This document shows positions 40,027 through 64,000 of a DNA stretch of 64,000 nt, piece by piece. A program made the position numbers and the translations under genes. The notes under the pieces were generated by a model that saw only the letters and a list, made by a program, of their open reading frames with translations, ran no database searches and had not been told where the DNA came from. This DNA is from Parcubacteria group bacterium GW2011_GWA2_40_23. Lineage in GTDB: Bacteria > Patescibacteriota > Patescibacteriia > UBA11705 > JABHMO01. Where the stretch lies: NCBI GenBank assembly GCA_000996245.1, contig LBYP01000001.1:17197-81196 (forward strand), read 5' to 3'. The first letter of the stretch is position 1. Every line of letters starts with the position of its first letter.

Positions 40027-40085
40027 GAAAGCACCTCCAGTAAATGGTTTTTGTTGACTCTTAACTGTGTCCTTTTGAACTAGCC

Positions 40086-40294: not shown

Positions 40295-40373
40295 TGGTGG
40301 ACGCTAGTGGGGTCGAACCACTGACCTCCTCGACGTCAACGAGGCGCTCTAGCCAACTGAGCTAAGCGTCCAC
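40295..40373 (-). tRNA. tRNA-Val (anticodon GAC)
   Basis: GTGGACGCTTAGCTCAGTTGGCTAGAGCGCCTCGTTGACGTCGAGGAGGTCAGTGGTTCGACCCCACTAGCGTCCACCA. 7-bp acceptor stem, anticodon loop TTGACGT, encoded CCA. Confidence 0.85.
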
Positions 40374-40616
40374 AAAGTACAGACTTTGCCTGACTTTATG
40401 GCAAGCCCCTAGTCGGCAAAGCTGTTTTTGATGGACAATAGATTTGTTTTTTATTAACGTGGCTTGTCACGTACTGACGTATGGTTCACCAGGAAGTACA
40501 CACGAAGTGTGACTTCATGGCAAGCCAGGCAGTATAAACAGAGTTTAACTTCATAGCAAGCCTAAAGCTATGCTGTCGTATGGTTCACCATAAAGTCACG
40601 CGTAGCGTGTACTTTA

Positions 40617-40693
40617 TGGTGGGCCTGATGGGACTCGGACCCATGACCCCCACTTTATAAGAGTGGTGCTCTAACCAGCTGAGCTACAGGCCC
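40617..40693 (-). tRNA. tRNA-Ile (anticodon UAU)
   Basis: GGGCCTGTAGCTCAGCTGGTTAGAGCACCACTCTTATAAAGTGGGGGTCATGGGTCCGAGTCCCATCAGGCCCACCA. Ile-type body (resembles tRNA-Ile GAU) but the anticodon loop is CTTATAA. The T-loop is TCCGAGT (C at position 55). Confidence 0.7.
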
Positions 40694-50290: not shown

Positions 50291-50377
50291 GCTCAGGTGG
50301 CGAAATTGGTACACGCACTACCTTGAGGTGGTAGCGGCCGCAAGGCCATGGAGGTTCAAGTCCTCTCCTGAGCACCA
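50291..50377 (+). tRNA. tRNA-Leu (anticodon GAG), with a long variable arm
   Basis: GCTCAGGTGGCGAAATTGGTACACGCACTACCTTGAGGTGGTAGCGGCCGCAAGGCCATGGAGGTTCAAGTCCTCTCCTGAGCACCA. Encoded CCA. Confidence 0.85.
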
Positions 50378-50522
50378 TAAAGTACACGATTCTCGTGACT
50401 TTATGGCTGGTCATGGAGTTAACTTCTGGTATACTTCAGGGTGAACCATGGTTTTAAATAGATGAATTTAATAGTCCTTAAGTGTTATTTTTTTGACATG
50501 CCATGTCCCAGTTGACGAAACA

Positions 50523-50552
50523 GATTTTTGGTGTTAAAGTAATGAGTCCATT
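50523..50552 (+). promoter_or_regulatory. Candidate promoter for island-2 (TTGACG-17-TAAAGT), followed by the SD GGAAGGGAGAG
   Basis: Seen directly in the AT-rich leader immediately before the GC-rich block. Confidence 0.4.
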
Positions 50553-50597
50553 GAACAGTGCAAAACCTGATTCCGCGGGAGGCGGAAGGGAGAGAAA

Positions 50598-51324
50598 AAT
50601 GCGTCCTATACCTTTACCCGATCGCCTGGACCTAAAACTCCAAGAGATCAACACGAAGCTACGAGGCTTCGGTGTTCCGTTCGACCTGTCTCGTTTGGGG
50701 AATTTCCGCAAGGGAGATTGGCAGATTGACGATGTCATTTCTGTCTTTGCTCATCGGGAGTTCAAGATCGCGGTCTGTTTCATCCTTTTGAAGCCGTGGA
50801 CTGGTGAGCGAACTGAGTATTGGTGCCAGTTCAATAGCACCTACTCGAGCGAAGCTCTGTCCGGCCACATCGTGATTCCCGTGGTGAACGGAACGCACTT
50901 TTTGATGATCAAGTCGTACGGGACTTTCATCGGAGTAGCGCCGCTCCTTTTTCCCCGAGGATTCATCCCGAAGTCGAAAGAGGATTTGCCGGCCGTGGTA
51001 GTTGCGCAGAGTTTGATCGAGCGCAAGCTCGGGGATTGCCTTACGGCTGTCCAGGGTGAAGTTCAAGGTCAAGCTCAGCTTCTGCGTGGTGAGCGCGGCA
51101 CCTTGCGTCTGGCCGAAGATCAGAGCACCAGCGGAAACTGGGTTACAGTCTCGGTCGTCCAGATCAAACTGGATATGGCCAAGTTCGAAGAACGACCCAA
51201 GGATTTCCGTGCGTTCAAGTTGGTTGCCATCAGCGATTTCCTTCAGCGAGTTGTCGCAGGCGAGATCGTTGATATGCACTCTCTTTCCGCATACGTGATG
51301 TACACGGCGGCGAGCAAAGGCTAG
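50598..51324 (+). CDS. GC-rich island-2 gene A: degenerate Nudix-fold-like protein
   Basis: Start chosen at MRPIPLPD, with SD GGAAGGGAGAG 5 nt upstream. The track's 50503 start lies in the AT-rich promoter. LFPRGFIPKSKEDLPAVVVAQSLIERKLG occupies the Nudix-box position but lacks the canonical REx2EE. Confidence 0.5.
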
Positions 51325-51399
51325 CGGGAGGCTAGTCTGGACAATTCTGTTTTCTGACTGTTTAGACGGGAGGTCTGACAGTGAGAAGGCAAGGTTGCT

Positions 51400-52077
51400 A
51401 TGATTCGAGATCTGTTGAAGGCACTCGCTCAGGGTGCCACGGCGGGTTGGAAGCTCCGTGTCAACGGAGTGGAAGTCCCGGCGAACGAAGTCGAGCTCGA
51501 GAACCTCAAGTTCGGGATGATCCGTTGGGGTTCCCTCGGGAGCTACGACTCCTGGGGCTTCCAGGAGGTGGGCGGTGGTGGTGCGGTCCTCGTGCCGTAC
51601 TTCGTCCACCCCGAGCGTGGCATCGTGGTCGGCCTGGTGCAGCAGCCCCGGCCGTTCATGTCCGAGAAGCCGGTGTGGAACCTGCCGCGCGGCTTCATGA
51701 ACCCGGGCCAGACGCACTTCAAGTCGGCCACGGGTGAAGCCCTCGAGGAGATCGGCTCCACCGACGGCAATCGCATCTTCCTGCTGAACGGTGAGCCGGC
51801 CAACCCCAACTCGACCTTCTTCGTCACTCGTGGCAACAACGCCGACGGCAGCCCCAAGGGCATCCGCTTCTACGGCGTCGGCTTCCTGCCCAGCGAGTTC
51901 GAGCCCGAGGGCAACGGCTTCAAGTTCAAGCCTGGCGTGGTCGTTCCGGCCACCAAGGACGCCGAGAAGATCATGGGCTGCCGGTTCGTCGACTGGATGG
52001 AAGCGACGCAGCTCGGCTGCATGATGACCATCTCGGGCGTCGCTCGTCTCGTCGTGTACAAGTACACGGATCTCTGA
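51400..52077 (+). CDS. GC-rich island-2 gene B: Nudix-hydrolase-like (ADP-ribose pyrophosphatase-like) with a variant Nudix box
   Basis: GGGAVLVPYFVHPERGIVVGLVQQ...WNLPRGFMNPGQTHFKSATGEALEEIG = G-x5-Q-x7-GE-x2-EE-xG. The canonical Nudix box is G-x5-E-x7-RE-x2-EE-xG. Confidence 0.55.
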   Translation: MIRDLLKALAQGATAGWKLRVNGVEVPANEVELENLKFGMIRWGSLGSYDSWGFQEVGGGGAVLVPYFVHPERGIVVGLVQQPRPFMSEKPVWNLPRGFMNPGQTHFKSATGEALEEIGSTDGNRIFLLNGEPANPNSTFFVTRGNNADGSPKGIRFYGVGFLPSEFEPEGNGFKFKPGVVVPATKDAEKIMGCRFVDWMEATQLGCMMTISGVARLVVYKYTDL

Positions 52078-52084
52078 TCCACAA

Positions 52085-52120
52085 CCCCCATTCGATGCAA
52101 GGTCGAGTGGGGGCATTTTT
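52085..52120 (+). terminator. Terminator of island-2 (CCCCCA-t-TCGA-tgcaagg-TCGA-g-TGGGGG-catTTTTT)
   Basis: Seen directly. Confidence 0.55.
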
Positions 52121-52139: not shown

Positions 52140-52495
52140 ACGAAGCAATCTGTTGTTACGAATAACTTCATAAAGTTGAAGGTTACGAATTATTTCTTAC
52201 GAATAGAATATTCTAATTGGAAGTTTCGAATTATTGTTAACATCTAATTGTTAAGCAGGCAGGTAACATCAAAATAGATGGTTCTATTCGTGAAACGGGA
52301 GCAGTAATTAGTAACATCAATATAGAATGTCTTATTCGTAACCATTTTGTCGAACCTCGTGGTTCATGCTATAATTTTAGTGAAAATATAATAACAAATA
52401 CAAGCTCATAGCTTATAGCAAGTTAGCTTATAGGTGCTAAGCCTTTGGATCATAAGTACCTAGAAGCTATAAGCTAGATTGCTAAAAGCTATATA
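52140..52495. promoter_or_regulatory. Repeat-dense intergenic region: six or more copies of TTACGAATA/TATTCGTAA, plus AGCTTATAG/CTATAAGCT direct and inverted repeats
   Basis: TTACGAATA-type copies at about 52155, 52183, 52199, 52227 (direct) and about 52285, 52330 (inverted). GTAACATCAA(A/T)ATAG occurs twice. AGCTTATAG occurs twice, with CTATAAGCT once, at 52410-52480. Confidence 0.4.
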
Positions 52496-52501
52496 AAAAA
52501 T

Positions 52502-52738
52502 ATGCTTGGACGTATCATCCTTGGTCTGATTTTGTGTGTGGTGGGTTACTTCTTTGTCTGGAAACCCTTAACCTTTCTTGATCTCATCGGCCCGATACCC
52601 TTTGCTGAAAAATGGTTTGGCAATAGTGTGTCTTTTTATAAATTCGTGGGCGTTTTTATTATTATGATTGGTTTTTTAGCCATTACTAACCTTCACGGAC
52701 GTGTACTTGAGTGGTTAGTTGGTTTTATAGCAAGATAA
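52502..52738 (+). CDS. Small membrane protein
   Basis: 78 aa with two TM helices. Confidence 0.45.
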   Translation: MLGRIILGLILCVVGYFFVWKPLTFLDLIGPIPFAEKWFGNSVSFYKFVGVFIIMIGFLAITNLHGRVLEWLVGFIAR

Positions 52739-53103
52739 TGTTGGGTCAAAACAAAAAAATTGGAAAATGGGGTGAACAATTAGCCAAAGATTTTTTAATT
52801 AAGGCCGGCTATCAAGTTATTGCTGATAATTGGACCAGGAAAATAGGGGAGATTGATCTTGTTGCCATTAAAGATAATGATATAGTCTTCGTGGAGGTTA
52901 AAACGCGTTCAACTCCATTTTGCGGTTGGGGCGAGGAGGCGGTTAATCATGCTAAGAAGAAAAAAATTAGTTTGCTCATCGATCGTTATCTTTTGGAAGA
53001 AAAGAAGTACCAGGATTTTTTTCCACGTTTTGATATTATCATTGTTGAACTTATTTCTCTCACGCCAAAATTTATTCATTATGAAAATGTATTATTAACT
53101 TAA
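52738..53103 (+). CDS. YraN-family (UPF0102) endonuclease-like protein
   Basis: KIGEIDLVAIKDNDIVFVEVKTR is a PD-(D/E)xK-like signature. The start at MLGQNKK overlaps the upstream stop by 1 nt. Confidence 0.7.
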   Translation: MLGQNKKIGKWGEQLAKDFLIKAGYQVIADNWTRKIGEIDLVAIKDNDIVFVEVKTRSTPFCGWGEEAVNHAKKKKISLLIDRYLLEEKKYQDFFPRFDIIIVELISLTPKFIHYENVLLT

Positions 53104-53107
53104 TTTT

Positions 53108-53455
53108 ATGGAAACTCCAAATAAAAAAGAAACGCCTCGCGATCCTCATGTTGCTGACAATAATAAAATTCTCGCAGCTATGAGTTATTTAGGTTTTTTG
53201 TGTTTCGTCCCTTTGTTTCTAAAAAAATCTAGTCCCTTTGTGCAATTTCATGCCAAGCAGGGTTTGGTTTTATTTATAGCTGAAGTTATTATTTCTTTTA
53301 TTAATATCATTCCATTTTTGGGACAATTGGTTTGGTTCTTGGCCATTGTTGTGTTTTGTATAGTTTCAATTAAGGGCATGATTAAAGCCTGGGACGGAGT
53401 TTATTGGAAAATACCGGTGTTATCTGACTATGCCAAAAAAATTAATTTAGATTAA
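53108..53455 (+). CDS. Small multi-pass membrane protein (DUF4870/TM2-like)
   Basis: 115 aa with three hydrophobic helices. Confidence 0.45.
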   Translation: METPNKKETPRDPHVADNNKILAAMSYLGFLCFVPLFLKKSSPFVQFHAKQGLVLFIAEVIISFINIIPFLGQLVWFLAIVVFCIVSIKGMIKAWDGVYWKIPVLSDYAKKINLD

Positions 53456-53457
53456 AT

Positions 53458-54867
53458 ATGAAAAGAACGAAAATTGTTTGTACTATAGGTCCGGCTTCAG
53501 ATAAACCAGAGACGCTCAAGAAATTAATCAAGGCCGGCATGAATGTGGCGCGACTTAATTTTTCGCATAATGTGTTGGCCTATCATGCTAAAGTTATTAA
53601 AAATATTCGACAATTAGCACAAGAGTCTAACCAGCCAATAGCTATTATTCAAGATCTGCAAGGGCCACGTATCCGTTTAGGTGATTTACCATTAGTGGGG
53701 ATTGAATTAAAAAAGAACACTGAAGTGATTTTGACGACAGGAAAAAGGAACGCGAAAAAAATAAGCGTGACTTATAAAAACATGCATTTGGATGTTAAAC
53801 CCAAGCAAAGAGTTTTAATTGCTGATGGAACCATTGAGTTGCTGGTTGAAAAAGTGAAGGGGCAGGATGTTATTTGTCGCGTTGTTGTTGAAGGAACAAT
53901 TTTTTCACACAAAGGAATAAATTTGCCTGACACGAATGTCCGTATTCAATTATTTTCTGACAAAGACAAGAAGGATTTGATTTTTGGTGTTAAACAAGAG
54001 GTTGATTATGTGGCTTTGTCATTTGTCCGAACAGCTCAAGATGTTTTGACTTTAAAGAAAATGATAAAAGCAGCCTCTATTAAACTAAAAAAGACCAAAC
54101 TTGATATCAAAGTAATCGTTAAAATAGAAAAACCTGAAGCCATCAAAAATTTTGATGCGATTTTAGCGGTAACTGATGCAGTTATGATTGCTCGAGGTGA
54201 TTTGGGTATAGAAATGTCGGCTGAAGATATTCCTGTTATTCAGAAAATGATTATCAACAAATGTTTGCATGCATCAAAGCCAGTTATTGTAGCGACACAA
54301 ATGCTCGACTCAATGATAAATAATCCAAGACCAACACGAGCTGAAGCGAGCGACGTGGCTAATGCAGTAATTGATCATACAGATGCAGTTATGCTTTCGG
54401 GCGAAACAGCTAGCGGTAAATATCCTGTCGAAGCAGTCGAAACTATGAGTCGCATCATCAATAAAACAGAAAATTCTGTTTACGATAATATGGTTTTAAA
54501 AGAAATTGCACGTTTTGCTACCGCCACGGACGATGTTATGGCGAATGTGGTTAAAAAGATTTCCACTAAAGTTAGACCACGGGCAATAATCGTCGCCACA
54601 CGTTCGGGTTATTCCGCTCGGATTGTTAGCCGCTATAGACCGGAGGTTTCTATGTGGGTTGTTTCTGAAAATCGTAAAACAGCTCAGCAACTAAATCTGT
54701 GTTGGGGCATAACTTCTTTCGTCTTGCCTCGAGTAAAAGATTATGAAGAGTTGCTTAATCAGGCCATCCAATATTTAAAAGAGAATAAAAAGATTAAAGC
54801 CGGTGATAAACTGGTAGTTATTGCCGGTCTTTTAGAATTAAATAGAGTTGAAATTAGAGTTGCTTAA
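53458..54867 (+). CDS. pyk: Pyruvate kinase
   Basis: MKRTKIVCTIGPAS...NFSH...MIARGDLGIE. Confidence 0.95.
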   Translation: MKRTKIVCTIGPASDKPETLKKLIKAGMNVARLNFSHNVLAYHAKVIKNIRQLAQESNQPIAIIQDLQGPRIRLGDLPLVGIELKKNTEVILTTGKRNAKKISVTYKNMHLDVKPKQRVLIADGTIELLVEKVKGQDVICRVVVEGTIFSHKGINLPDTNVRIQLFSDKDKKDLIFGVKQEVDYVALSFVRTAQDVLTLKKMIKAASIKLKKTKLDIKVIVKIEKPEAIKNFDAILAVTDAVMIARGDLGIEMSAEDIPVIQKMIINKCLHASKPVIVATQMLDSMINNPRPTRAEASDVANAVIDHTDAVMLSGETASGKYPVEAVETMSRIINKTENSVYDNMVLKEIARFATATDDVMANVVKKISTKVRPRAIIVATRSGYSARIVSRYRPEVSMWVVSENRKTAQQLNLCWGITSFVLPRVKDYEELLNQAIQYLKENKKIKAGDKLVVIAGLLELNRVEIRVA

Positions 54868-54868
54868 T

Positions 54869-55993
54869 ATGAAACTGGGTTTTTGGGAAGCTATTGCAGC
54901 TATGGTCGGCACCATGATTGGTGCTGGTGTTTTGGGTTTGCCTTATGTCATAAGTAAAGTTGGTCTGTCTATTGGTTTGGTCATGTTATTGCTTTTAGGC
55001 GTCGCGGCCTTAATCCTCAACCTTATGCTGACCGAGGTTGTCTTGCGTACAACAGCCTCACATCAACTTGCTGGTTATGCAAAAAAATATTTAGGGGTAA
55101 TCCCGTATCGTTTCGAAACCTTAGCTGTTATTATTGGAACTTATGGTGGTTTAACAGCTTATCTCATCGGAGAAGGAAAAGTTTTATCGATTTTATTGGG
55201 AGGTAAGGAATTAACTTATAGTTTATTTTTTTTCGTAATCATTAGTTTTTTGTTACTATTTGAAATTAAAACTATTAAAATTTTTGGATTGATAATTGTT
55301 TGCTGCTTGTTGGTCGTTGTTTTTGCCATAGTTCTTCTTGGGGGAGGCTCACTTAAGATTGAAAACATGAACTACTCTGATTTTTCTAATATTTTTATTC
55401 CCTATGGTGTTATTTTGTTCGCTTATGGCGGTGCGGCTGCGGTAGTGACAGTGCGACAAATTTTACGCAGGAATGAGAAAAAAATATTGCCTGCAGTTTT
55501 GATTGGCACATTAATTCCAATAGTCATTTATGTAATTTTTACTTTAGTTATTGTTGGCGTTACGGGAAGGGCTACGACAGAAATTGCAACCGTGGGATTA
55601 GGACAAGCTTTGGGACCATGGATGTTGCTTTTTGGTAATTTATTCGCATTTTTTGCTATGGGTTCGGTTTTTTTAAATGGGGGACTCATTTTACGCGAGT
55701 TTTATCAATACGATTTTCATATACATAAAATTTGGGCCTGGCTTTTGGTTATTTCTGTACCGTTAGTTCTGTTTTTGTTTGTGGCTCATGATTTTGTTAA
55801 GACTATGGGCGTAGCCGGTGGTCTGGCTTATGGTATTACCGGAATTACAATTGTCTCTTTATTTTGGAAAGCCAAGCAAAAAGGAGATCGTCAGCCGGAA
55901 TTTTCATTACCACGGTTTAGGATAATCGGCAGTGTTTTAATACTAACTTTTATACTCGGAATGATTTATACTCTAGTCACATTTAAACTTTAA
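54869..55993 (+). CDS. Amino-acid permease-family membrane transporter
   Basis: About 11 TM helices. N-terminal GTMIGAGVLGLPYV is typical of amino-acid/aromatic amino-acid permeases. Confidence 0.6.
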   Translation: MKLGFWEAIAAMVGTMIGAGVLGLPYVISKVGLSIGLVMLLLLGVAALILNLMLTEVVLRTTASHQLAGYAKKYLGVIPYRFETLAVIIGTYGGLTAYLIGEGKVLSILLGGKELTYSLFFFVIISFLLLFEIKTIKIFGLIIVCCLLVVVFAIVLLGGGSLKIENMNYSDFSNIFIPYGVILFAYGGAAAVVTVRQILRRNEKKILPAVLIGTLIPIVIYVIFTLVIVGVTGRATTEIATVGLGQALGPWMLLFGNLFAFFAMGSVFLNGGLILREFYQYDFHIHKIWAWLLVISVPLVLFLFVAHDFVKTMGVAGGLAYGITGITIVSLFWKAKQKGDRQPEFSLPRFRIIGSVLILTFILGMIYTLVTFKL

Positions 55994-56063
55994 AAGCACT
56001 TCGCCGTCTGCGGACGGAAGGCTTGATTTTTCTCTAAATTTATGGTATATTCTCTAAGCTAAT

Positions 56064-57551
56064 ATGAAGCCAGAAACCAAATATTATAGGCTCTTAGAGA
56101 TGATCCCAGGTGCTCTTATCTGGACAACTTTGTTGTTGTCCGTCATCGTATCTTTTTGGCAGCCCCTCTGGGTAATTTTCTTTATCATTGCTTTTGATCT
56201 TTTTTGGCTTTTTCGTATTGCACACTTTATCTTCTTTGTAAGTTTATCATTCTTCAAGTATAAACAAGTGGTACAAGTCAACTGGTTTGAAAAAGTTAAA
56301 CAAATTGATAATTGGGAACGTCTTTTTCATATAATTTATTTGCCGACTGCTGGCGAACCAGTAGAAGTTTTACGTAGTACTTTTCGAAGCTTATTAAATA
56401 GTGAATATCCTGCGCAAAAAATGATTGTGGTTTTGGGTGGGGAGGGTAGAATGGAAAATGATTTTTTACCAAAAGCCGAGGCGATAAAAAGAGAATTTAC
56501 TTCTAAATTTTTTCGTGTTTTTATAACATTACACCCAGGGGACCTGCCAGACGAAATGAAAGGCAAGGGTGCTAATGCTAATTGGATGGGACACGAGTCC
56601 AAAAAGAAGATTGATGAACTTAATATTCCTTACGAAGACTTGATCGTCTCGTATTTTGATAGTGATACTTGTGTGCATCCTCAATACTTTTCGTATTTGA
56701 CGTACAAATATTTAACGCACCCTACACCGATGCGAGTTTCTTATCAACCAGCTGTTTTGTACAATAATAATATCTGGGATGCACCGGCGGCCATGCGTGT
56801 AACGGCTTTTGGTACTATCTTTTGGCTATTAACAGAATTGATGCGTCCAGAACGTATGTATACTTTTTCTTCTCATAGTATGAGTTATAAAGCACTGATT
56901 GATGTTGATTTTTGGCAAAAAGATATTGTCACTGATGATTCACGCATATTTTTACAATGTTTTTTTAAGTATCATGGGGAGTATGCTGTAGAGCCAATGT
57001 ATATTCCAGTTTCTATGGATACAGTTATGGATAAAAGTTATTGGAGAAGTTTTCGTAATTTGTATAAGCAACAACGACGTTGGGCCTGGGGAGTGGAACA
57101 TTTCCCTTATATGATGTGGAACTTTAAAAAAGATAAATTAATACCTTGGTATAAAAAAGTAAAATATACTTGGAATTTAGTTGAGGGGATGTATTCTTGG
57201 GCCACAGCGCCAATTCTTATTTTTATTCTTGGTCGTTTGCCACTTTGGGTGGCTGGACGTGGAGCTGAATCAACTTCAGTGATTGTCCAAAATGCACCTT
57301 TTGTCTTGGAATGTTTAATGCAGATATCGATGCTTGGTATTACAGTTTCCGCAATTATCAGTGTCTTGCTTTTGCCGGCACGACCAAAAGGGCACTCGAA
57401 ATGGAAGTATCCTGTTATGTTATTGCAATGGATATTGCTGCCGGTAACTTTAATTCTTTTTGGATCTATCCCCGCCATAGAAGCGCAAACGCGTTTGATG
57501 TTGGGTAAAAAATTTCATTTAGGTTTCTTTGTAACTCCAAAATCACGTTAA
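56064..57551 (+). CDS. Integral-membrane family-2 glycosyltransferase (processive, cellulose/chitin-synthase-like)
   Basis: N- and C-terminal TM helices, DxD-type FDSDT, and the Q(Q/R)xRW motif YKQQRRWAWG. Confidence 0.75.
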   Translation: MKPETKYYRLLEMIPGALIWTTLLLSVIVSFWQPLWVIFFIIAFDLFWLFRIAHFIFFVSLSFFKYKQVVQVNWFEKVKQIDNWERLFHIIYLPTAGEPVEVLRSTFRSLLNSEYPAQKMIVVLGGEGRMENDFLPKAEAIKREFTSKFFRVFITLHPGDLPDEMKGKGANANWMGHESKKKIDELNIPYEDLIVSYFDSDTCVHPQYFSYLTYKYLTHPTPMRVSYQPAVLYNNNIWDAPAAMRVTAFGTIFWLLTELMRPERMYTFSSHSMSYKALIDVDFWQKDIVTDDSRIFLQCFFKYHGEYAVEPMYIPVSMDTVMDKSYWRSFRNLYKQQRRWAWGVEHFPYMMWNFKKDKLIPWYKKVKYTWNLVEGMYSWATAPILIFILGRLPLWVAGRGAESTSVIVQNAPFVLECLMQISMLGITVSAIISVLLLPARPKGHSKWKYPVMLLQWILLPVTLILFGSIPAIEAQTRLMLGKKFHLGFFVTPKSR

Positions 57552-57552
57552 T

Positions 57553-58530
57553 ATGAGTAAAGTTTCAATCAATCTAGTTACTTGGAACGGAGCCAAATAT
57601 ATAGACAATTGTTTGCGCTCTGTTTTTGCTCAGACGTTTAAAGATTATTCCATTCTAATAATTGACAATGGTTCTTCCGATGAGACTTTGGCGATTATAA
57701 AAGAGCAATATCCGCAACTTAAAGTTATCGAGCATAAAAAAAATATCGGGTTTGCTAAAGCGCACAATCAAGCTATTCATTGGAGCAAGTCTGATTATGT
57801 TTTGCTCTTAAATCAGGATGTGGTTTTAGCATCGGGATATTTAAATGATTTAGTTAATTTTTTGGATAATAATTCCATGGCCGGTTCTGTCGCAGGAAAA
57901 ATTTTGCGTCTTCAAGACGAAGAAAAAACTAATTATATTGATTCTGTTGGTTTGCGTATTTATAAAAATTATCGAGTCGTGGATATGGGGGCGGGGGAAG
58001 TTGATGAAGGGCAATATGACGCTATTACGGAAATTTTTGGTGTTTCTGGCGCTTTGCCAGTTTATCGACGTAAAGCTTTGGAAGAAATAATGTACCAACA
58101 AGAATATTTAGATGAATCATTTTTTAGTTATAAGGAAGATGTTGATTTAGCGCATCGGTTGATCACTGCCGGTTGGCAATCCTGGAGAGTGCCGACAGCG
58201 GTTGCCTATCATGACCGGACGGTAAGTTCTCCATATGAAAAAATGACCGCAGTGAAGGTGGCTCAAAACCGTCAAAAAAAATCAAAATTTGCTAAATTCT
58301 ATTCTTACCGTAATCATCTATATTTTTTGAAAAAGAATTTATCTCGTTTGACCTTGGCAGTATTTTTTTATGAGTTAGTAAAGGCAGTATATGTGTTGTT
58401 GTTTGAACCACGTAATTTGAGAGCGTGGAAAGACTATTTTCATGTCCGCAAGGAATTAAAAGCCAAAAGGGATTTAATTCAAAAACGACGTAAAATTTCT
58501 GAAGAAAAATTAAGCTCTTGGCTCAGTTGA
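57553..58530 (+). CDS. Glycosyltransferase family 2
   Basis: VSINLVTWNGAKYIDNCLRSV...IIDNGSSDET, with a DxD motif. Confidence 0.8.
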   Translation: MSKVSINLVTWNGAKYIDNCLRSVFAQTFKDYSILIIDNGSSDETLAIIKEQYPQLKVIEHKKNIGFAKAHNQAIHWSKSDYVLLLNQDVVLASGYLNDLVNFLDNNSMAGSVAGKILRLQDEEKTNYIDSVGLRIYKNYRVVDMGAGEVDEGQYDAITEIFGVSGALPVYRRKALEEIMYQQEYLDESFFSYKEDVDLAHRLITAGWQSWRVPTAVAYHDRTVSSPYEKMTAVKVAQNRQKKSKFAKFYSYRNHLYFLKKNLSRLTLAVFFYELVKAVYVLLFEPRNLRAWKDYFHVRKELKAKRDLIQKRRKISEEKLSSWLS

Positions 58531-58531
58531 T

Positions 58532-59329
58532 ATGGAGATTTCAATTGTTATTCTAAATTATAAAATGAAGGGCCTGGTTAAAAATTGTTTACAGGCTATT
58601 TTTGAATCACAAATTTCTGTTCCGTACGAAATTATTGTGGTTGATAATGACTCGCATGATGGAGTTGAGCAACTGATTAAAGAAAAATTTCCTACAGTTC
58701 GTTTTATTCAAACTGGTCAAAACCTGGGTATGGGTGGGGGAAATAACGTGGGGATCAAGGCTGCTGTTGGTAAATTTATTTTGATCATGAATCCGGATAT
58801 CTTTGTCTATCCTAATTCTATTCAACAAATGTATGATTATATCAAAGCTAGGTCTGATGTTGGCTTGGTGGCACCGCGTTTGTTAAATCCGGATAAAAGT
58901 TTACAGTATTCTTGTTATCGCTGGTACAACTATCTGACCCCATTATATCGCCGTACAGTTTTAGGCAAATTAAAATTTGCACAGAAAGAAGTTGATCGTT
59001 TTTTAATGACTGATTGGGACCATGCGACTACGAGAGAAGTAGATTGGATACAGGGTTCTTGTTGGTTGGTTCCCAAAAAGGTTTTTGACGAAGTCGGTGT
59101 GTTCGATGAAAAGTTTTTTATGTATTTTGAGGACACAGATTTGTGTCGTCGAATTCATAATGCAAAATATAAAATAATGTATTTAGCTCAGAGCGAAGTT
59201 TTGCATCTTCACCGGCGGCAATCTGCTGACAGTCAATTTTGGGGTGTAGTTTTAAATAAATTAACACGGATACATATTGTGAGTTGGCTGAGATATTTGT
59301 GGAAGTGGCGGGAGAAAAATGTTTTATAG
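58532..59329 (+). CDS. Glycosyltransferase family 2
   Basis: ISIVILNYKMKGLVKNCLQAI...VVDNDSHDG. Confidence 0.8.
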   Translation: MEISIVILNYKMKGLVKNCLQAIFESQISVPYEIIVVDNDSHDGVEQLIKEKFPTVRFIQTGQNLGMGGGNNVGIKAAVGKFILIMNPDIFVYPNSIQQMYDYIKARSDVGLVAPRLLNPDKSLQYSCYRWYNYLTPLYRRTVLGKLKFAQKEVDRFLMTDWDHATTREVDWIQGSCWLVPKKVFDEVGVFDEKFFMYFEDTDLCRRIHNAKYKIMYLAQSEVLHLHRRQSADSQFWGVVLNKLTRIHIVSWLRYLWKWREKNVL

Positions 59330-59330
59330 G

Positions 59331-59360
59331 CAGATTCGTTTAGAGGGAATCTGTTTTATT
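59331..59360 (+). terminator. Terminator after the glycosyltransferase operon (CAGATTC-gtttagagg-GAATCTG-TTTTatt)
   Basis: Seen directly. Confidence 0.5.
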
Positions 59361-59446
59361 GATCGTTTTTCTGATACAATTTAGCTAGCTGAGATGTTGT
59401 TTGTTTTGAGTTACGGAAAAGGGTGGTATAAACTTAACTTTATTCA

Positions 59447-60292
59447 ATGCTCAATATGAAGAAATCAAACTCGGTAATATTATTTAACCAAAAGCAAGTT
59501 CGTCGTTTTTACGATGACGGTAAAGAAACTTGGTATTTTTCTATTATTGATGTTATTGAGATTTTGACTGACACTAGTATCCCAAGGAGATATTGGAGTG
59601 ATTTAAAAAATAAGCTGAAAAACGAGGGTAGTGAAGTGTACGAAAAAATCGTACAGTTGAAAATGACTGCTCCTGATGGAAAACAAAGAAAAACAGACTC
59701 TTTTTCTACGGAAGACTTGCTTCGTGTAATCCAATCGATTCCTTCTCCAAAAGCAGAGCCATTTAAATTATGGTTGGCAAAAGTTGGGTACGAACGGATA
59801 GAAGAAACGGAAGATCCTGAACTTGCCATTGATAGGGCAATGAAAACTTATTTGAAAAAAGGTTATTCAAAAGAATGGATAAATCAACGTCTAAAAAGTA
59901 TTGAAGTACGCAAAGAATTAACTGATGAATGGCAAGAGCGCGGAATGAAAGAAGGGCTGGAATATGCGATATTAACTGATGAAATTACCAGAGCGTGGGC
60001 AGATAGAAGCGTGAGAGATTATAAAAAGTTTAAGGGCTTAAAAAAGGGGAATCTGAGAGATAATATGACTAATCTTGAGTTGATATTGAATATGCTCGCT
60101 GAAGCATCAACAGCAGAAATATCAAAGAAGAAAAAGCCCAATGGGTTAGAAAACAATAAACAAGTTGCCAGAAAAGGAGGATTTGCCGCAAAAAAGGCGA
60201 GACTTGAAATAGAAAAGCAAATGGGGGAAAGTATAATAACCGCTAAGCGGGCAAAAAAAATAAAAGTAAAACAAAACTTTTTTTTAGAGTAA
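59447..60292 (+). CDS. Bro-N/KilA-N-like DNA-binding domain protein (phage antirepressor-like)
   Basis: The N-terminal region (VRRFYDDGKETWYFSIIDVIEILTD...RYWSDLK) resembles Bro-N. C-terminal basic helical region. Confidence 0.5.
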   Translation: MLNMKKSNSVILFNQKQVRRFYDDGKETWYFSIIDVIEILTDTSIPRRYWSDLKNKLKNEGSEVYEKIVQLKMTAPDGKQRKTDSFSTEDLLRVIQSIPSPKAEPFKLWLAKVGYERIEETEDPELAIDRAMKTYLKKGYSKEWINQRLKSIEVRKELTDEWQERGMKEGLEYAILTDEITRAWADRSVRDYKKFKGLKKGNLRDNMTNLELILNMLAEASTAEISKKKKPNGLENNKQVARKGGFAAKKARLEIEKQMGESIITAKRAKKIKVKQNFFLE

Positions 60293-60327
60293 CGTTCTGC
60301 TAGAAATTAGATATAGTAAACGTCATT

Positions 60328-62352
60328 ATGCACAGTCACAAACAAAACTTCATCTTTAAACCCCCAAAAAGAAAGTTGCCTGAACATCTTAGTTTTTTAG
60401 GTAATGTTTTGGTTGTCAGTCTGCGTTTATTACCATATTTGTTCATATTATTTATTTGTTTAATTGTTTGCTTGTTGATTATTGTCGCCGCAGGGGTAGT
60501 GCCACATTATGCTTCTTTGAAAAATGTTTATGTGGAAGCACAGCTCGGTCAGCAGCACATGTTAACAGCAGAAGCCCAGGTACGTGAGTATGAATTCGCC
60601 AAAGCTGAGACGGAGTTGCAACTAGCCAAAGAAAGTTTTGTCGAGGCGCAAAAAAGTTTAGCTGTTGTCGATGATTCATTTCTCATGAAGAGTAGCTATT
60701 TACGTAATCAATATGATGTTGCTAGCGATGTTTTGTTTATCGGTGAAGAATTAGCCAATTCAGTCAATGGTTTGTGTGTCATAGGCGCTCGGGCCATGGA
60801 CGCGGTTTCAGATAAGAATATGAGTTTTGAAAAGATTGATGCTACGACTAAGGGCGAACTCTTGGCGGTTCTCATATCTTCAATGAATGAACTCAAAGAC
60901 GTGCGTCGTAATATCGGTATAGTGGGAGAAAAGCTCCGAGAAATTAACACTAAACAACCACTATTCATTTTTGATAAAGTCGTAGATCCATTACAAGCAA
61001 AAATCCCACAAATCGAAAAAGCTTTTGATGCTTCACTGTCATTTTTACGTGCCTTGCCTTGGCTTACAGGTTACCCAGAAGAAAAAACATATTTGTTTAT
61101 ACTCGAGAATAACAGAGAAATGCGTCCGGCCGGTGGTTTTATTGGCACATACGGAATTTTTCAAGTTGCCAATGCTGAAATTAAAAATTTTTATACAGAT
61201 AATAGTTATAATTTAGATGTCAAAGTTAAAGATACTCAAAAGATTCCGGCGCCAAAACCAATGGAAAAGTATATGGCGCAACCAAATTGGTTTTTTCGTG
61301 ATTCTAACTGGTGGCCAGATTGGCCAACTTCAGCCGAAAAGATTGCTTGGTTTTATGATCAAGAGGGCGGCACGGAAAAACTTGATGGGGTAATTGCTAT
61401 TACTCCGACAGTTATTGAACAGTTACTGGGATTCCTCGGTGAATTTGAAATTGGTGGTTTAAAATTCAACCAACAAAATTTTTGGGAACAATTACAATAC
61501 CAAGTTGAGTACGGTTATTATAAACAGGGAATAGATGCAGCAGACCGCAAAGATATTATCGGTGACCTCAGTCGCGAAATGATTAAACGTCTTTATTCGT
61601 ATCCGATTTCGCAGTGGCCAGCTTTGATTGATACTATTTCTAAATCAGTCAAAGAAAAACATATTCTGATTTATTTCTTCGATCCATTAGCTCAGTCAGT
61701 GTCAGTGGAAAATGGTTGGGCTGGGGAAGTGAAGCCAAATCCAGGTGATTATGTGATGCTTGTCGATGCGAATCTAGCAGCTCTCAAAACTGATTCTGTT
61801 ATGGCGCGCACGATGGTTTATAATTTACATGAGAACAAAGATGGAGCAGTGCTCGCTGAAACTCGCGTCAATTATCAAAACATGGGGACCTTTACTTGGA
61901 AAACAACTCGTTATCGATCTTATACTCGTTTATATGTTCCAGAAGGCAGTCAACTGATTTCTGTCGAAGCTGGTGGTAAAGTTTATAAACCAGAGGATGT
62001 TGATACTGTTAATGAATTTGGTAAAACTTCATACGCAGTTTTCTTTGAGGTAGAACCGCAGACATCCAAAGAAGTTGTGTGGAAATATCAATTACCAAAT
62101 TCTATTGTCGAACAAATTAAAAACGGAGAATATCAACTTTTAGTTCAAAAACAACCTGGGATTGAGAAAATGAATTTACAACTTAATCTTAATTTTTCGA
62201 CTGAAGTTCGTGATCTTGGTGTTGAGGAACAATTAAATGCTTTAGATATCAGCAAAAAAGCAAAAAAGCAAGAAAGCAAACAGATTGTGAAACAAGCTAC
62301 TGTCTTGCGACAAGATCAGGAATATTCTGTGTGGTTTAATGCAAAAAAATAA
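60328..62352 (+). CDS. Membrane-anchored extracytoplasmic protein, DUF4012-like
   Basis: 674 aa. N-terminal TM helix, a coiled-coil segment, and ENNREMRPAGGFIGTYG resembling the DUF4012 core (NNAE(I/L)RATGGFIGS). Confidence 0.55.
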   Translation: MHSHKQNFIFKPPKRKLPEHLSFLGNVLVVSLRLLPYLFILFICLIVCLLIIVAAGVVPHYASLKNVYVEAQLGQQHMLTAEAQVREYEFAKAETELQLAKESFVEAQKSLAVVDDSFLMKSSYLRNQYDVASDVLFIGEELANSVNGLCVIGARAMDAVSDKNMSFEKIDATTKGELLAVLISSMNELKDVRRNIGIVGEKLREINTKQPLFIFDKVVDPLQAKIPQIEKAFDASLSFLRALPWLTGYPEEKTYLFILENNREMRPAGGFIGTYGIFQVANAEIKNFYTDNSYNLDVKVKDTQKIPAPKPMEKYMAQPNWFFRDSNWWPDWPTSAEKIAWFYDQEGGTEKLDGVIAITPTVIEQLLGFLGEFEIGGLKFNQQNFWEQLQYQVEYGYYKQGIDAADRKDIIGDLSREMIKRLYSYPISQWPALIDTISKSVKEKHILIYFFDPLAQSVSVENGWAGEVKPNPGDYVMLVDANLAALKTDSVMARTMVYNLHENKDGAVLAETRVNYQNMGTFTWKTTRYRSYTRLYVPEGSQLISVEAGGKVYKPEDVDTVNEFGKTSYAVFFEVEPQTSKEVVWKYQLPNSIVEQIKNGEYQLLVQKQPGIEKMNLQLNLNFSTEVRDLGVEEQLNALDISKKAKKQESKQIVKQATVLRQDQEYSVWFNAKK

Positions 62353-62388
62353 CCCTTTGAAGCTTTAGCGGAGAAGGATACAAAGTTA

Positions 62389-62419
62389 AGAGCCGGAACG
62401 ATGAGATCGTTCCGGCTCT
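62389..62419. terminator. Bidirectional terminator: a perfect 14-bp stem (AGAGCCGGAACGAT-gag-ATCGTTCCGGCTCT)
   Basis: Seen directly between convergent genes. It marks the left edge of GC-rich island-3. Confidence 0.65.
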
Positions 62420-62426
62420 TGTTGTC

Positions 62427-62714
62427 TTAGCTTCGTGATTTGATCTGCTCGGCACGATCCCACGCAGCCTGGATCGTAGCGGAGGTCGGGCCAAGATCCG
62501 GGTTCTCGTACGGATATTGGCGTCCTGGAAAGAGGGTCGGATTTTCTTGGCCACAGGAACAGAACCACCCCGTAGCGTCGCTATTCAAGACATTGGCTGT
62601 TTTGTGGCATTTGCCACAAGTGGCGCCTGTCATGCCTGGATAAGCAGCCCAAGTGGTCATGGCCTCGACCAGCTCGTCTTCGGTGTAGCTGTGGAAACGG
62701 TCCTTCGCCATCAT
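62427..62714 (-). CDS. GC-rich island-3 gene: small Cys-rich zinc-ribbon-like protein
   Basis: 95 aa, with CGKCHK...CSCGQE. Confidence 0.5.
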   Translation of the reverse strand: MMAKDRFHSYTEDELVEAMTTWAAYPGMTGATCGKCHKTANVLNSDATGWFCSCGQENPTLFPGRQYPYENPDLGPTSATIQAAWDRAEQIKSRS

Positions 62715-62722
62715 AGCCTCCT

Positions 62723-63319
62723 TTACACGGTCGCTTGCGCGACCGGTTGCGCAAATTGGTGTCGTTGCTTCTTGAGCGGTTCGCGCAGATAGATGACGAC
62801 GAGCTGGAAGTCGTTATAACTGCGCTTACGCCATTGACGCCATGACCCACAGGAGGCACCGAGGTTCGTTCCCTTGAGGACGAACCAGGGAGCCAAGTGT
62901 CCGTACGGATTGGGGATGATCTCGAGTTCATGGTAGCCGGGTGCGAGAGCGATGGGGTCCTTGCATTTGGGCTGGTTGCTATCATAGACCGTGTGCTGTG
63001 ATCCTCGAACCAGCGCGTAGATGTGCTTGGTCTTGCGGTAGTGGAGGGTCACGCCGCTCTCGGGGTCGGCGGACTTGGCCTGCCAGGCGTCGCTGGCGAT
63101 GCCGGTCATGGTGCCGGTGAGGACGTACCACGGCGAGCCGTGATCGAAGCCGTACGGATTTTCCACTTCTTCGAGCTGGTAGTAGCCAGGCTCGAGAGTG
63201 TAGTCCGCGAAATCAGGATCACGGTCGAGATCGCGGTCTGCCTCGGTCTGAGGAACGTGCTCGAACAGCCGAATTGGCTTGCGCACCAGGGCGAAGATGA
63301 ACTGTTTTCTTTCGATCAT
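62723..63319 (-). CDS. GC-rich island-3 gene: protein built from two copies of an unrecognised ~90-aa domain
   Basis: Repeat 1 is FIFALVRK...PGYYQLEEVENPYGFDHGSPWYVLTGTMTGIASDAW. Repeat 2 is HIYALVRG...PGYHELEIIPNPYGHLAPWFVLKGTNLGASCGSW. Confidence 0.55.
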   Translation of the reverse strand: MIERKQFIFALVRKPIRLFEHVPQTEADRDLDRDPDFADYTLEPGYYQLEEVENPYGFDHGSPWYVLTGTMTGIASDAWQAKSADPESGVTLHYRKTKHIYALVRGSQHTVYDSNQPKCKDPIALAPGYHELEIIPNPYGHLAPWFVLKGTNLGASCGSWRQWRKRSYNDFQLVVIYLREPLKKQRHQFAQPVAQATV

Positions 63320-63331
63320 CGCCGTTACTCC

Positions 63332-63622
63332 TTACGCTGTTACGATGAGGGTGGGCGGCGGGGTCAACTTGATGTTGAGCGGCGTGTCCTGGATGATTAC
63401 CGTCGGCCAGTAGTTCTTGCAGGCGCCGATCTTGCTGCCCTTGATCACGTACCAGGGAATTTCGTGTCCCAGCGGGTTCTTGATCTCTTCCAGTTCGTAG
63501 TCGCCGGCCGCGAGCTCCAACTTGGCGTGGTAGTATTCCGGCTTTCCAGCGAGGTTACCTTGGAAGACTGTGAATCCGGGGAGCTTGAGGTGGACGTAGA
63601 TGAACTTTTCTTGCGTAGCCAT
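63332..63622 (-). CDS. GC-rich island-3 gene: single-domain paralog of the same ~90-aa domain
   Basis: FIYVHLKL...AGDYELEEIKNPLGHEIPWYVIKGSKIGACKNYW. SD AAGGG lies upstream. Confidence 0.55.
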   Translation of the reverse strand: MATQEKFIYVHLKLPGFTVFQGNLAGKPEYYHAKLELAAGDYELEEIKNPLGHEIPWYVIKGSKIGACKNYWPTVIIQDTPLNIKLTPPPTLIVTA

Positions 63623-63661
63623 CTCGTGGCCCTTTCAGGTTGTTACTCAAAGCAACTTGGA

Positions 63662-63690
63662 ATATTATCAGAAAGTGCAAAATTTGTCAA
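63662..63690 (-). promoter_or_regulatory. Near-consensus promoter for the island-3 operon (TTGACA-17-TAATAT)
   Basis: Seen directly on the minus strand: -35 at 63685-63690, -10 at 63662-63667. It shares the intergenic region with the divergent dnaE. Confidence 0.5.
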
Positions 63691-63781
63691 TATTAGTAAT
63701 AAAATTAGTGAAAAACACGAAATTCCACCCTGGCAATTTTATCTATCTATGATAAAATAATGACACATTAAAGAAATATTT

Positions 63782-64000
63782 ATGGCTTTTGTCCCACTCC
63801 ACGTACATACTCATTACAGCTTGCTAGATGGTCTAGCCAAGGTTGATGATATAGTCCAAAAAGCCAAAACTGACGGCATGACCGCGGTGGCTATTACTGA
63901 CCATGGGGTTATGTATGGCGTGATTGAGTTTTACAAAAAATGTCGCGCGGCTGGTATCAAACCAATTATTGGAGTGGAAGCTTATATCGTCAATGATAGA
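63782..64000 (+). CDS. dnaE: DNA polymerase III alpha subunit, N-terminal PHP domain (partial; continues beyond the window)
   Basis: MAFVPLHVHTHYSLLDGLAKVDDIVQKAKTDGMTAVAITDHGVMYG... Confidence 0.8.
   Translation, partial: MAFVPLHVHTHYSLLDGLAKVDDIVQKAKTDGMTAVAITDHGVMYGVIEFYKKCRAAGIKPIIGVEAYIVNDR

What the first reader, a model, noticed from the sequence alone, without database searches (positions are those of the whole stretch)
62385..63700. GC-rich island 3: operon of a Zn-ribbon protein plus proteins made of a thrice-repeated unrecognised ~90-aa domain
The third GC-rich cassette is on the minus strand, between a 14-bp perfect-stem terminator and the dnaE promoter region. It is driven by a near-consensus TTGACA-17-TAATAT promoter. 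The 198-aa and 96-aa products contain three copies of one domain with a shared motif close to (F/H)IY(A/V)xV...PGY(Y/H)ELE(E/I)xxNP(Y/L)Gxxx(A/S)PW(Y/F)V(L/I)KG(T/S)xxGAxxxxW. I cannot assign it to a known family. A duplicated small beta-rich domain with a dedicated Zn-ribbon partner is reminiscent of immunity or inhibitor-type or phage accessory proteins.
Basis: partly seen in the sequence, partly recalled or inferred. Interest (0 to 1): 0.7.

Follow-up and report, generated by a model that had tools for sequence, protein, structure and literature searches.

The report
Foreign GC-rich operon, undescribed small domain
A real three-gene operon with foreign, GC-rich codon usage sits between dnaE and a DUF4012 gene in a low-GC Parcubacteria (CPR) genome; it carries three copies of an unnamed small beta-rich domain that turns out to define a wider, laterally mobile CPR protein family whose function is still unknown.

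Summary
Window 62.39-63.65 kb is 56-61% GC against about 36%, and codon third positions (GC3) are 0.74-0.80 against 0.31 in host genes. It carries a TTGACA-17-TAATAT promoter, three tightly spaced minus-strand genes (96, 198 and 95 aa) and a 15-bp hairpin. Independent assemblies reproduce both junctions.

A related Parcubacterium has a different, also GC-enriched cassette of the same family (five domain copies, no Zn-ribbon gene) in the same dnaE/DUF4012 slot, with conserved promoter and hairpin. The family has native composition in high-GC Patescibacteria and raised GC3 in several low-GC ones. The best reading is lateral transfer within CPR into a reusable slot.

Nothing supports a phage, immunity or defence role. 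The Zn-ribbon gene is an orphan. Interest is moderate.

The parts
63662..63690 (-). Sigma-70-type promoter TTGACA-17-TAATAT with TG extension. It drives the cassette and faces away from dnaE.
   Evidence: Consensus scan gives 10 of 12 matches. The -35 box and most of the spacer are conserved in the syntenic locus L001.
63623..63661 (-). 5' leader with a weak Shine-Dalgarno sequence (GAAAGGG), partly conserved with L001.
   Evidence: Sequence read and alignment.
63332..63622 (-). Gene A, 96 aa, one copy of the small beta-rich domain.
   Evidence: ORF. Family HMM E 2e-23. GC3 0.80. AlphaFold model pLDDT 81.
62723..63319 (-). Gene B, 198 aa, two tandem copies of the domain. Copy 1 is about nt 63038-63310 and copy 2 about nt 62762-63037.
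   Evidence: ORF. Two HMM domains, residues 4-94 and 95-186. 44% identical to P0002 of Parcubacteria GW2011_GWC2_38_7.
62723..62794 (-). Last 72 nt of gene B. These are 68/72 identical at nucleotide level to the orthologue in L001, although synonymous sites between the two genomes are saturated.
   Evidence: Alignment. dS 1.6-2.1 in flanking genes. No notable RNA fold.
62427..62714 (-). Gene C, 95 aa, an acidic orphan protein with CxxC-x15-CxC (putative Zn ribbon).
   Evidence: ORF. The only hit among 5.8e9 proteins is itself. No Pfam or NCBIfam family. pI 5.2.
62388..62420 (.). Perfect 15-bp hairpin with a 3-nt loop. It is a bidirectional terminator-like element between gene C and the convergent DUF4012 gene.
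   Evidence: z = -7.4. A 42-nt block including the hairpin is identical in L001.
60328..62352 (+). Context: host DUF4012 gene, the right-hand boundary of the slot.
   Evidence: Pfam E 1.6e-26. 84% aa identity to the L001 orthologue.
63782..64000 (+). Context: start of host dnaE (PHP domain). It is the left-hand boundary of the slot and runs off the window.
   Evidence: The N-terminus MAFVPLHVHTHYS matches dnaE of L001. L013 gene table.

Best explanation
This is a genuine, laterally acquired accessory operon in a low-GC Parcubacteria (CPR/Patescibacteria) genome. It occupies a conserved 'slot' between dnaE and a DUF4012 gene. The slot is bounded by a host-like AT-rich promoter and a strongly conserved hairpin terminator.

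The cargo is two genes with three copies of an undescribed small beta-rich domain of about 75-90 aa, plus an orphan putative Zn-ribbon gene. The domain defines a Patescibacteria-centred family of mostly single-domain proteins of 65-110 aa. It moves between CPR lineages of different GC content. The cassette here still carries the codon usage of a high-GC donor, most plausibly another Patescibacterium.

Inferred, not shown: the products are cytoplasmic and non-enzymatic. They probably work by binding a partner, either a protein or a nucleotide-type ligand. Copy number and sequence turn over quickly while remaining under purifying selection, as expected of an accessory or conflict-type function rather than housekeeping.
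For: Composition:
- GC is 0.56-0.61 against 0.36, and GC3 is 0.74-0.80 against 0.31.
- Codon usage correlates with a 59%-GC Patescibacterium (r = 0.76) and negatively with host genes (r = -0.22).

Operon anatomy: promoter, Shine-Dalgarno sequences and hairpin are all present.

Real assembly.

Protein coding and constrained:
- The domain is repeated three times.
- Cassette dN/dS is 0.32-0.63 against 0.04-0.06 in flanking genes.

Conserved slot with variable cargo:
- L001 (GW2011_GWC2_38_7) has dnaE | 95 | 95 | 95 | 188 aa | hairpin | DUF4012.
- That cassette is 50-55% GC against 37% in its flanks.
- Its promoter and hairpin are conserved.

Patescibacterial distribution: Uhrbacteria, Vogelbacteria, Woesebacteria and two 'Patescibacteria group' MAGs.

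GC3 of the family gene relative to its host:
- Native: L020 0.80 (host genes 0.76-0.81), L009 0.61/0.69, L019 0.39/0.36.
- Raised: L011 0.56/0.34, L021 0.58/0.36.

Island-like sites elsewhere: in L014 the member lies about 200 bp downstream of tmRNA, and in L015 it sits in an islet that follows tmRNA.

Timing: a simple amelioration model predicts GC3 of at most 0.40-0.52 if the cassette had been inherited since the split from L001. This argues for later (re)acquisition.

Binding-module inference:
- The AlphaFold model is a six-strand beta domain.
- There is no recognisable catalytic family.
- The domain is fused promiscuously to NUDIX (P0074) and to Cys-rich or unknown regions.

Genomic islands and mainly intra-phylum transfer are documented for Patescibacteria (PMC12455944).
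Against: - There is no integrase, tRNA or direct repeats at this island, so the insertion mechanism is unknown.
- No actual donor sequence was found. The closest relatives outside the syntenic clade are only about 30% identical.
- The related genome also carries a GC-enriched cassette in the same place. One ancient acquisition with GC maintained by selection is therefore not excluded.
- The amelioration argument rests on saturated dS values and a crude two-state model.
- The function is pure inference. There is no significant structural neighbour, no conserved gene partner across loci, and no expression data.
Confidence: 0.6

Rival explanations
1. Single ancient acquisition, or an old lineage-specific locus. 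The cassette was already in the common ancestor of the window organism and GW2011_GWC2_38_7 and has been inherited vertically. It has diversified by tandem duplication and loss. Its high GC3 is kept by selection or by a local mutational or repair bias, not by recent transfer.
For: - The slot is the same and the promoter and hairpin are conserved in two species.
- Orthology is recognisable: B and the 188-aa protein are 44-46% identical, and A and P0004 are 49% identical.
- The 72-nt 3' end of B is shared.
- Cassette dS (1.0-1.6) is in the same range as flank dS.
- GC3 in L001 (0.50-0.65) is near the upper bound of the amelioration model.
Against: - GC3 of 0.74-0.80 in the window is well above the 0.40-0.52 expected after the divergence seen in the flanks.
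- Two unrelated islands in the same window share the foreign signature.
- Other low-GC CPR genomes show the same family with raised GC3 at unrelated sites. That fits repeated transfer better than locus-specific selection.
Confidence: 0.25
2. One reading: a phage-derived or conflict cassette. The small duplicated domain would be an inhibitor, immunity or anti-defence protein, for example a sponge or decoy, working with the Zn-ribbon protein.
For: - The proteins are small, evolve fast, are tandemly duplicated and have foreign composition.
- Most family members are acidic: median pI 5.5, and 38 of 60 have pI below 6.
- The domain is fused to NUDIX in P0074, and a Nudix gene lies in the same tmRNA-adjacent islet in L015.
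- Neighbouring slots hold Bro-N (window) or NYN plus a SocA/Panacea-type gene (L001).
- Two Zn-ribbon ORFs lie directly upstream of the member in L016.
Against: - There are no PHROGs or PADLOC hits for the cassette proteins, and no PHROGs hit for any of 60 family members.
- IMG/VR and INPHARED gave no hit.
- BFVD gave no significant match.
- No phage structural or integration genes are nearby.
- The Zn-ribbon gene is absent from the syntenic cassette and is an orphan.
- Most members sit alone between housekeeping genes with no recurring partner.
Confidence: 0.15
3. Artefact: a chimeric assembly or contaminating high-GC DNA joined into a low-GC contig. A variant of this is that the region is a GC-rich non-coding or diversity-generating-retroelement variable region rather than ordinary genes.
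For: The composition switches sharply at the ORF boundaries. A 23S_rRNA_IVP/bAvd-like gene lies about 7 kb away on the source contig.
Against: - Three independent assemblies reproduce the junctions.
- A different species has a homologous cassette in the same slot.
- The flanking regulatory DNA is continuous and conserved.
- No reverse transcriptase or template/variable repeat pair is present.
- No Rfam family matches the cassette.
- There is clear protein-level conservation, with dN/dS below 1.
Confidence: 0.02

Closest known systems
Genomic islands and individually transferred genes of Patescibacteria (PMC12455944)
   Same: Both show atypical composition, small hypothetical cargo and variable content between related genomes. 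Transfer is mostly within the phylum. Other members of this family, and the two other islands in the window, lie next to tRNA or tmRNA genes.
   Different: This island has no tRNA, integrase or flanking repeats. It sits in a slot with a conserved host-like promoter and terminator, and a related species fills that slot with different cargo of the same family.
SH3-like small beta-barrels (bacterial SH3b cell-wall-binding domains, Tudor/PWWP-type barrels)
SpaA / Cna-B prealbumin-like repeats (PF17802, PF05738)
   Same: They share the motif L-x-PG-x-Y-x-L-x-E-x-x-x-P-x-G-(Y/H)...P-(F/W)-x-(V/L)-x-KG. Giant SpaA-repeat proteins appear among the HMM hits through profile positions of about 23-53. hhalign aligns 32 columns.
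Zn-ribbon proteins
   Same: Gene C has CxxC-x15-CxC in a short acidic protein.
   Different: No family model matches and there is no homologue anywhere. Metal binding is untested.

Membership tests
Horizontally acquired genomic island (Patescibacteria) | Composition and codon usage deviate from the host genome | tested here: met
   GC is 0.56-0.61 against 0.36. GC3 is 0.74-0.80 against 0.24-0.35. RSCU correlation with host genes is r = -0.22.
Horizontally acquired genomic island (Patescibacteria) | Variable presence or content between related genomes with conserved flanks | tested here: met
   L001 has the same slot with four genes and five domain copies and no gene C. The flanks are syntenic.
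Horizontally acquired genomic island (Patescibacteria) | Integration hallmarks: tRNA/tmRNA target, integrase, flanking direct repeats | tested here: not met
   There is no tRNA within 10 kb of this island, and no integrase or repeats. Islands 1 and 2 and the members in L014 and L015 do lie near tRNA or tmRNA genes.
Horizontally acquired genomic island (Patescibacteria) | Homologues in a plausible donor lineage with matching composition | tested here: inconclusive
   The family has native composition in 59-61% GC Patescibacteria (L020, L009). However, the closest non-syntenic relatives are only about 30% identical. No actual donor was identified.
SH3b / SH3-like small beta-barrel | Significant structural superposition on SH3-like domains | tested here: not met
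SH3b / SH3-like small beta-barrel | Match to SH3-type profile HMMs | tested here: not met
   No SH3 family appears for 60 members, even at E up to 5.
SpaA / Cna-B prealbumin-like domain | Pfam PF17802/PF05738 hit above the gathering score over the whole domain | tested here: not met
   Only 2 of 60 members hit, at E of at least 0.027. hhalign aligns 32 columns with 17% probability.
SpaA / Cna-B prealbumin-like domain | Secreted, multi-repeat, wall-anchored architecture | tested here: not met
   A and B have no signal peptide or LPXTG motif by inspection, and carry one or two domains only.
Phage accessory / anti-defence / defence system | Homology to phage protein families or presence in phage genomes | tested here: not met
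   PHROGs gave no hit for A, B, C or 60 family members. IMG/VR pattern scans and INPHARED tblastn were negative.
Phage accessory / anti-defence / defence system | Match to known defence-system models | tested here: not met
   PADLOC gave no hit.
Zn-ribbon protein (gene C) | Two Cys knuckles at Zn-ribbon spacing | tested here: met
   CGKC (residues 33-36) and CSC (52-54) are seen directly in the sequence.
Zn-ribbon protein (gene C) | Profile or structural match to a Zn-ribbon family; bound zinc | tested here: inconclusive
   There is no Pfam or NCBIfam match. Metal content cannot be tested here.
Diversity-generating retroelement target | Reverse transcriptase plus a template/variable repeat pair | tested here: not met
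   There is no reverse transcriptase in 20 kb of the source contig. No repeat involves the cassette.

The most novel reading that the evidence does not exclude
The dnaE/DUF4012 intergenic region is a conserved 'expression slot' in a clade of Parcubacteria. It repeatedly captures or exchanges GC-rich cassettes drawn from high-GC Patescibacteria. The cargo domain is a new fold-level family of small binding modules, linked to NUDIX in some lineages. These modules would act as sponges, decoys or sensors for nucleotide-type signals or proteins in conflicts between CPR cells and their phages or host bacteria. The conserved 72-nt end of gene B plus the hairpin would then be the recombination anchor.
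Probability: 0.12. Interest if true: 0.65.

Novelty: new member of a known kind. Interest (0 to 1): 0.4.

Why it matters
CPR/Patescibacteria genomes are tiny, and most of their accessory genes are unannotated. This finding defines a previously unnamed domain family of at least about 300 clusters at 50% identity. The family is largely confined to that radiation, it has no significant match among the solved (PDB) and viral (BFVD) structures that could be searched, and it is repeatedly seen as a compositionally foreign islet.

It also shows a concrete case where two species keep the same promoter and terminator frame but fill it with different cargo of one family. If followed up, this could give a handle on how streamlined symbionts exchange and express accessory genes. 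By itself it is a hypothetical-protein island, which is common in these genomes, and no function has been shown.

Tried and rejected
Searches that found nothing:
- Pfam, NCBIfam, PHROGs and PADLOC for A, B and C, and Pfam, NCBIfam and PHROGs for 60 family members.
- PDB sequence profile search. The only result was E = 0.2 to a SpaA-like chain.
- The afdb50 library was not available.
- The first GTDB pattern scan, using close family members.
- IMG/VR scans and INPHARED tblastn.
- The word-indexed protein search found only 2-3 close relatives. The exhaustive HMM search was needed to see the family.
- Gene C has no homologue and no similarity to the Zn-ribbon ORFs next to the L016 member or to any ORF in the fetched loci. 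Its match to P0022 was weak (E 0.011).

Ideas tested and dropped:
- Shared flanking repeats, or the hairpin recurring at the other two islands. Neither was seen.
- RNA structure in the conserved 72-nt tail. The fold z-score was only -1.56.
- Rfam on the region. It gave only a sub-threshold group I intron hit and miRNA noise on the hairpin.
- Homology between the Nudix-like protein of island 2 and the NUDIX part of fusion protein P0074. None was found.
- Island 1 and 2 proteins against the PDB and against ORFs of all fetched loci. Nothing was found.
- No conserved gene partner emerged from the loci examined.
Full report
**1. What is in the sequence**

The window is about 36% GC throughout, except for three blocks of 52-62% GC at about 38.9-40.1, 50.4-52.1 and 62.4-63.65 kb. 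In the third block, 300-nt windows reach 0.56-0.61 GC and drop to 0.32-0.43 on both sides.

It holds three minus-strand ORFs:
- A, 63332-63622, 96 aa.
- B, 62723-63319, 198 aa.
- C, 62427-62714, 95 aa.

They are separated by 12 and 8 nt that carry AAGGAG and AGGAGG. Upstream is TTGACA-17-TAATAT with a TG extension at 63690-63662. Six nucleotides after the stop codon of C is a perfect 15-bp/3-nt hairpin at 62388-62420, with free energy -28.8 kcal/mol and z = -7.4.

dnaE starts at 63782 on the opposite strand, and a DUF4012 gene converges on the hairpin.

GC3 is 0.80, 0.74 and 0.62 for A, B and C, against 0.24-0.35 for five host genes. The contrast therefore lies in codon usage and not only in amino-acid content.

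A aligns twice to B (E 3.4e-11 and 8.5e-10). A family HMM finds one domain in A, two in B, and none elsewhere in the window. C carries CxxC-x15-CxC.

**2. Not an artefact**

Three other assemblies reproduce the region:
- A Logan assembly of another run (L006) is 100% identical from dnaE to 62759.
- An ENA scaffold (L005) is 99.7% identical over 62615-63382.
- A JGI contig of 113 kb (L013) is identical over 52427-64000.

Public gene calls on that contig miss A and B and call the antisense 245-aa ORF instead.

**3. Relatives and synteny**

The word-indexed search found only B itself and a 188-aa protein, 44% identical, from Parcubacteria group bacterium GW2011_GWC2_38_7. On that organism's contig (L001) the homologue lies in the same place. 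The order is dnaE, then three one-domain genes of 95 aa, then the two-domain 188-aa gene, then the hairpin, then DUF4012. One of the 95-aa genes is mis-called in the public annotation.

That cassette has five domain copies and no Zn-ribbon gene. It is 50-55% GC against about 37% in its flanks, with GC3 of 0.50-0.65.

The promoter and leader, and a 42-nt block containing the hairpin, are conserved between the two genomes. The two genomes are nevertheless far apart:
- Flanking genes (dnaE, DUF4012, a glycosyltransferase) have dS 1.6-2.1, which is saturated, and dN/dS 0.04-0.06.
- Cassette pairs have dN 0.43-0.76 and dN/dS 0.32-0.63.

The cassette genes are therefore real, constrained coding sequences that evolve five to eight times faster at the protein level than their neighbours.

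**4. The domain family**

An exhaustive HMM search of 1.84 billion representatives, using a profile of the close copies, gave 321 proteins at E of at most 1e-3. In regular-expression form this is G-x-[YHF]-x-[LIVMF]...P...W-x-x-[LIVF]-x-G-[TS]-x-x-G.
- The median length of motif-bearing proteins is 92 aa, and 97 of them are 120 aa or shorter.
- Five are two-domain proteins.
- Most of the largest hits, of 941 to 4669 aa, match profile positions of about 23-53 only; the one checked against Pfam (P0034) is a SpaA/Cna-B repeat protein.

Pairwise BLASTP of B against many small members gives E values from 1e-13 to 1e-21. The family consensus is PGxYELERIxNPxGxxxxWLVLKGTxIGxxExxWRxW.

None of 60 members hits Pfam, NCBIfam or PHROGs. 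Even at E up to 5 only scattered noise appears. A PDB profile search gives only E = 0.2 to a SpaA-like chain.

The named sources are Candidatus Uhrbacteria, Vogelbacteria, Woesebacteria, two 'Patescibacteria group' MAGs, the Parcubacteria MAG, and one 'Candidatus Binatia' contig.

**5. Structure**

With five sequences, AlphaFold gave pLDDT 62. With the 60-sequence alignment it gave pLDDT 81 and pTM 0.68, with the core at 87-94. The model has six strands and two short helices.

hhalign against a SpaA-repeat protein aligns 32 columns, from the PGxYxLxE...P.G hairpin through to ...KG, at 17% probability. I treat both resemblances as leads and not as membership.

**6. Context of other members**

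Members usually sit alone, or in islets of small unannotated genes between housekeeping genes.
- In L014 the member lies about 200 bp downstream of tmRNA.
- In L015 it lies in an islet that follows tmRNA and also contains a Nudix gene.
- In L011 it lies in a GC-rich islet about 1 kb from tRNA-Asp.
- P0074 is a NUDIX-plus-domain fusion.
- L016 has two Zn-ribbon ORFs immediately upstream.
- P0022 embeds the domain between Cys-rich segments.
- L017 has a frameshifted copy.

No partner recurs. Gene C has no homologue at all. The idea of a dedicated Zn-ribbon partner is therefore not supported.

**7. Composition across the family**

| Locus | Host type | GC3 of family gene | GC3 of host genes |
|---|---|---|---|
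| L020 | 59% GC Patescibacterium | 0.80 | 0.76-0.81 |
| L009 | 61% GC Uhrbacteria | 0.61 | 0.69 |
| L019 | 40% GC genome | 0.39 | 0.36 |
| L011 | low-GC genome | 0.56 | 0.34 |
| L021 | low-GC genome | 0.58 | 0.36 |
| L001 | low-GC genome | 0.50-0.65 | 0.32-0.36 |
| window | low-GC genome | 0.74-0.80 | 0.31 |

The gene is native in the first three loci and clearly raised in the last four.

The three islands of the window resemble each other in dinucleotide signature (delta* 79-84 against 116-197 to host DNA). Their codon usage correlates with each other (r = 0.66-0.76) and with L020 (r = 0.72-0.82), and is anticorrelated with host genes.

A two-state amelioration model, using the flank dS, predicts GC3 of at most 0.40-0.52 had the cassette resided here since the split from L001. 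This is my own rough inference.

Together these results favour transfer from high-GC Patescibacteria, with the window's cassette being a relatively recent arrival or replacement in a slot that the sister lineage also uses. Patescibacterial genomic islands and predominantly intra-phylum transfer are described in PMC12455944.

**8. What it probably does**

Shown: this is an expressed-looking operon of constrained, fast-evolving, cytoplasmic small proteins with no catalytic signature. The domain is modular, occurring at the N- or C-terminus of otherwise unrelated proteins, and is laterally mobile.

Inferred: it is a binding module for a protein or small ligand with an accessory, possibly conflict-related, role. 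I put about 30% on the conflict or inhibitor reading and much more on the 'laterally acquired accessory operon of a new CPR family' reading.

The phage-origin idea has no positive evidence. PHROGs, PADLOC, IMG/VR, INPHARED and BFVD were all negative. CPR phages are poorly sampled, however.

**9. Unexplained**

- The last 72 nt of B are 68/72 identical to the L001 orthologue, including 19 of 20 third positions of conserved codons, although synonymous sites are saturated elsewhere. The segment does not fold notably and occurs nowhere else in the window or in IMG/VR. In L001 it abuts the hairpin. In the window, gene C is wedged between the two. It may be a recombination boundary or a nucleotide-level element.
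- It is also unexplained why the composition switch coincides so closely with the ORF boundaries while the promoters and terminators look host-like. The same pattern holds at islands 1 and 2.

**10. Verdict**

This is a new, unnamed domain family inside an otherwise familiar kind of object, a small horizontally acquired islet in a CPR genome. Interest is moderate, at 0.4.

Noticed in passing
window 38879-40083 (358-aa ORF 38950-40026, minus strand): GC-rich island 1 is a single 358-aa ORF with GC3 of 0.90 and no Pfam, NCBIfam, PDB or phage match. It has a host-like TTGACA...TATAAT promoter and its own terminator. It lies between a 29%-GC HypC-like gene and tRNA-Val/tRNA-Ile.
   Followed up: partly
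window 50400-52120 (ORFs 50503-51324 and 51400-52077, plus strand): GC-rich island 2 lies directly downstream of tRNA-Leu(GAG). It holds a 273-aa unknown protein and a 225-aa weak Nudix-like protein (Pfam E 0.002, below the cut-off; GC3 0.87). Nudix is also fused to, or adjacent to, the finding's domain in other genomes (P0074, L015). The two Nudix sequences are not detectably related.
   Followed up: partly
window 40260-40641 and 50353-50407: A repeated palindromic element of about 33 nt (CCATAAAGTACAC...GTGACTTTATGG) follows each tRNA gene. There are three good copies plus a 64% match at 53907. It looks like a tRNA-associated terminator or repeat family.
   Followed up: no
window 40617-40693 (minus strand): ARAGORN calls a tRNA-Ile with anticodon TAT. 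From general knowledge this is an unusual way for bacteria to read AUA.
   Followed up: no
window 62723-62794 (minus strand): The 72-nt 3' end of gene B is conserved at nucleotide level (68/72) with the L001 orthologue, although synonymous sites are saturated elsewhere. No RNA structure or other copy was found.
   Followed up: partly
window 63679-63876 (plus strand): There is a sub-threshold Rfam hit to the group I intron model (25.6 bits against a gathering score of 50; E 6e-4 for this small search). It is antisense to the dnaE start and promoter region and is probably chance.
   Followed up: no
window about 59447-60292 (L013 12423-13268) versus L001 12808-14523: The next slot beyond DUF4012 is also variable. 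The window genome has a Bro-N domain gene there. The related genome has NYN, a 129-aa ORF and an HTH/SocA-Panacea-type gene.
   Followed up: no
L013 8955-9692 (= window 63023-63760 plus strand); L001 9453-9710: Public gene calls are wrong in the GC-rich cassette. The JGI contig calls the antisense 245-aa ORF instead of genes A and B. The ENA, NCBI and Logan gene calls for L001-L003 list an 85-aa out-of-frame ORF instead of the 95-aa family member P0004.
   Followed up: yes
L017 8001-8229: The family copy in a Patescibacteria group MAG is split by a frameshift into 54-aa and 48-aa ORFs. It is either a pseudogene or an assembly error.
   Followed up: no
L013 2532-2912 (outside the window, about 7 kb beyond dnaE): A 23S_rRNA_IVP/bAvd-like four-helix-bundle gene is conserved in both genomes. 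No reverse transcriptase lies nearby, so there is no evidence of a diversity-generating retroelement.
   Followed up: partly
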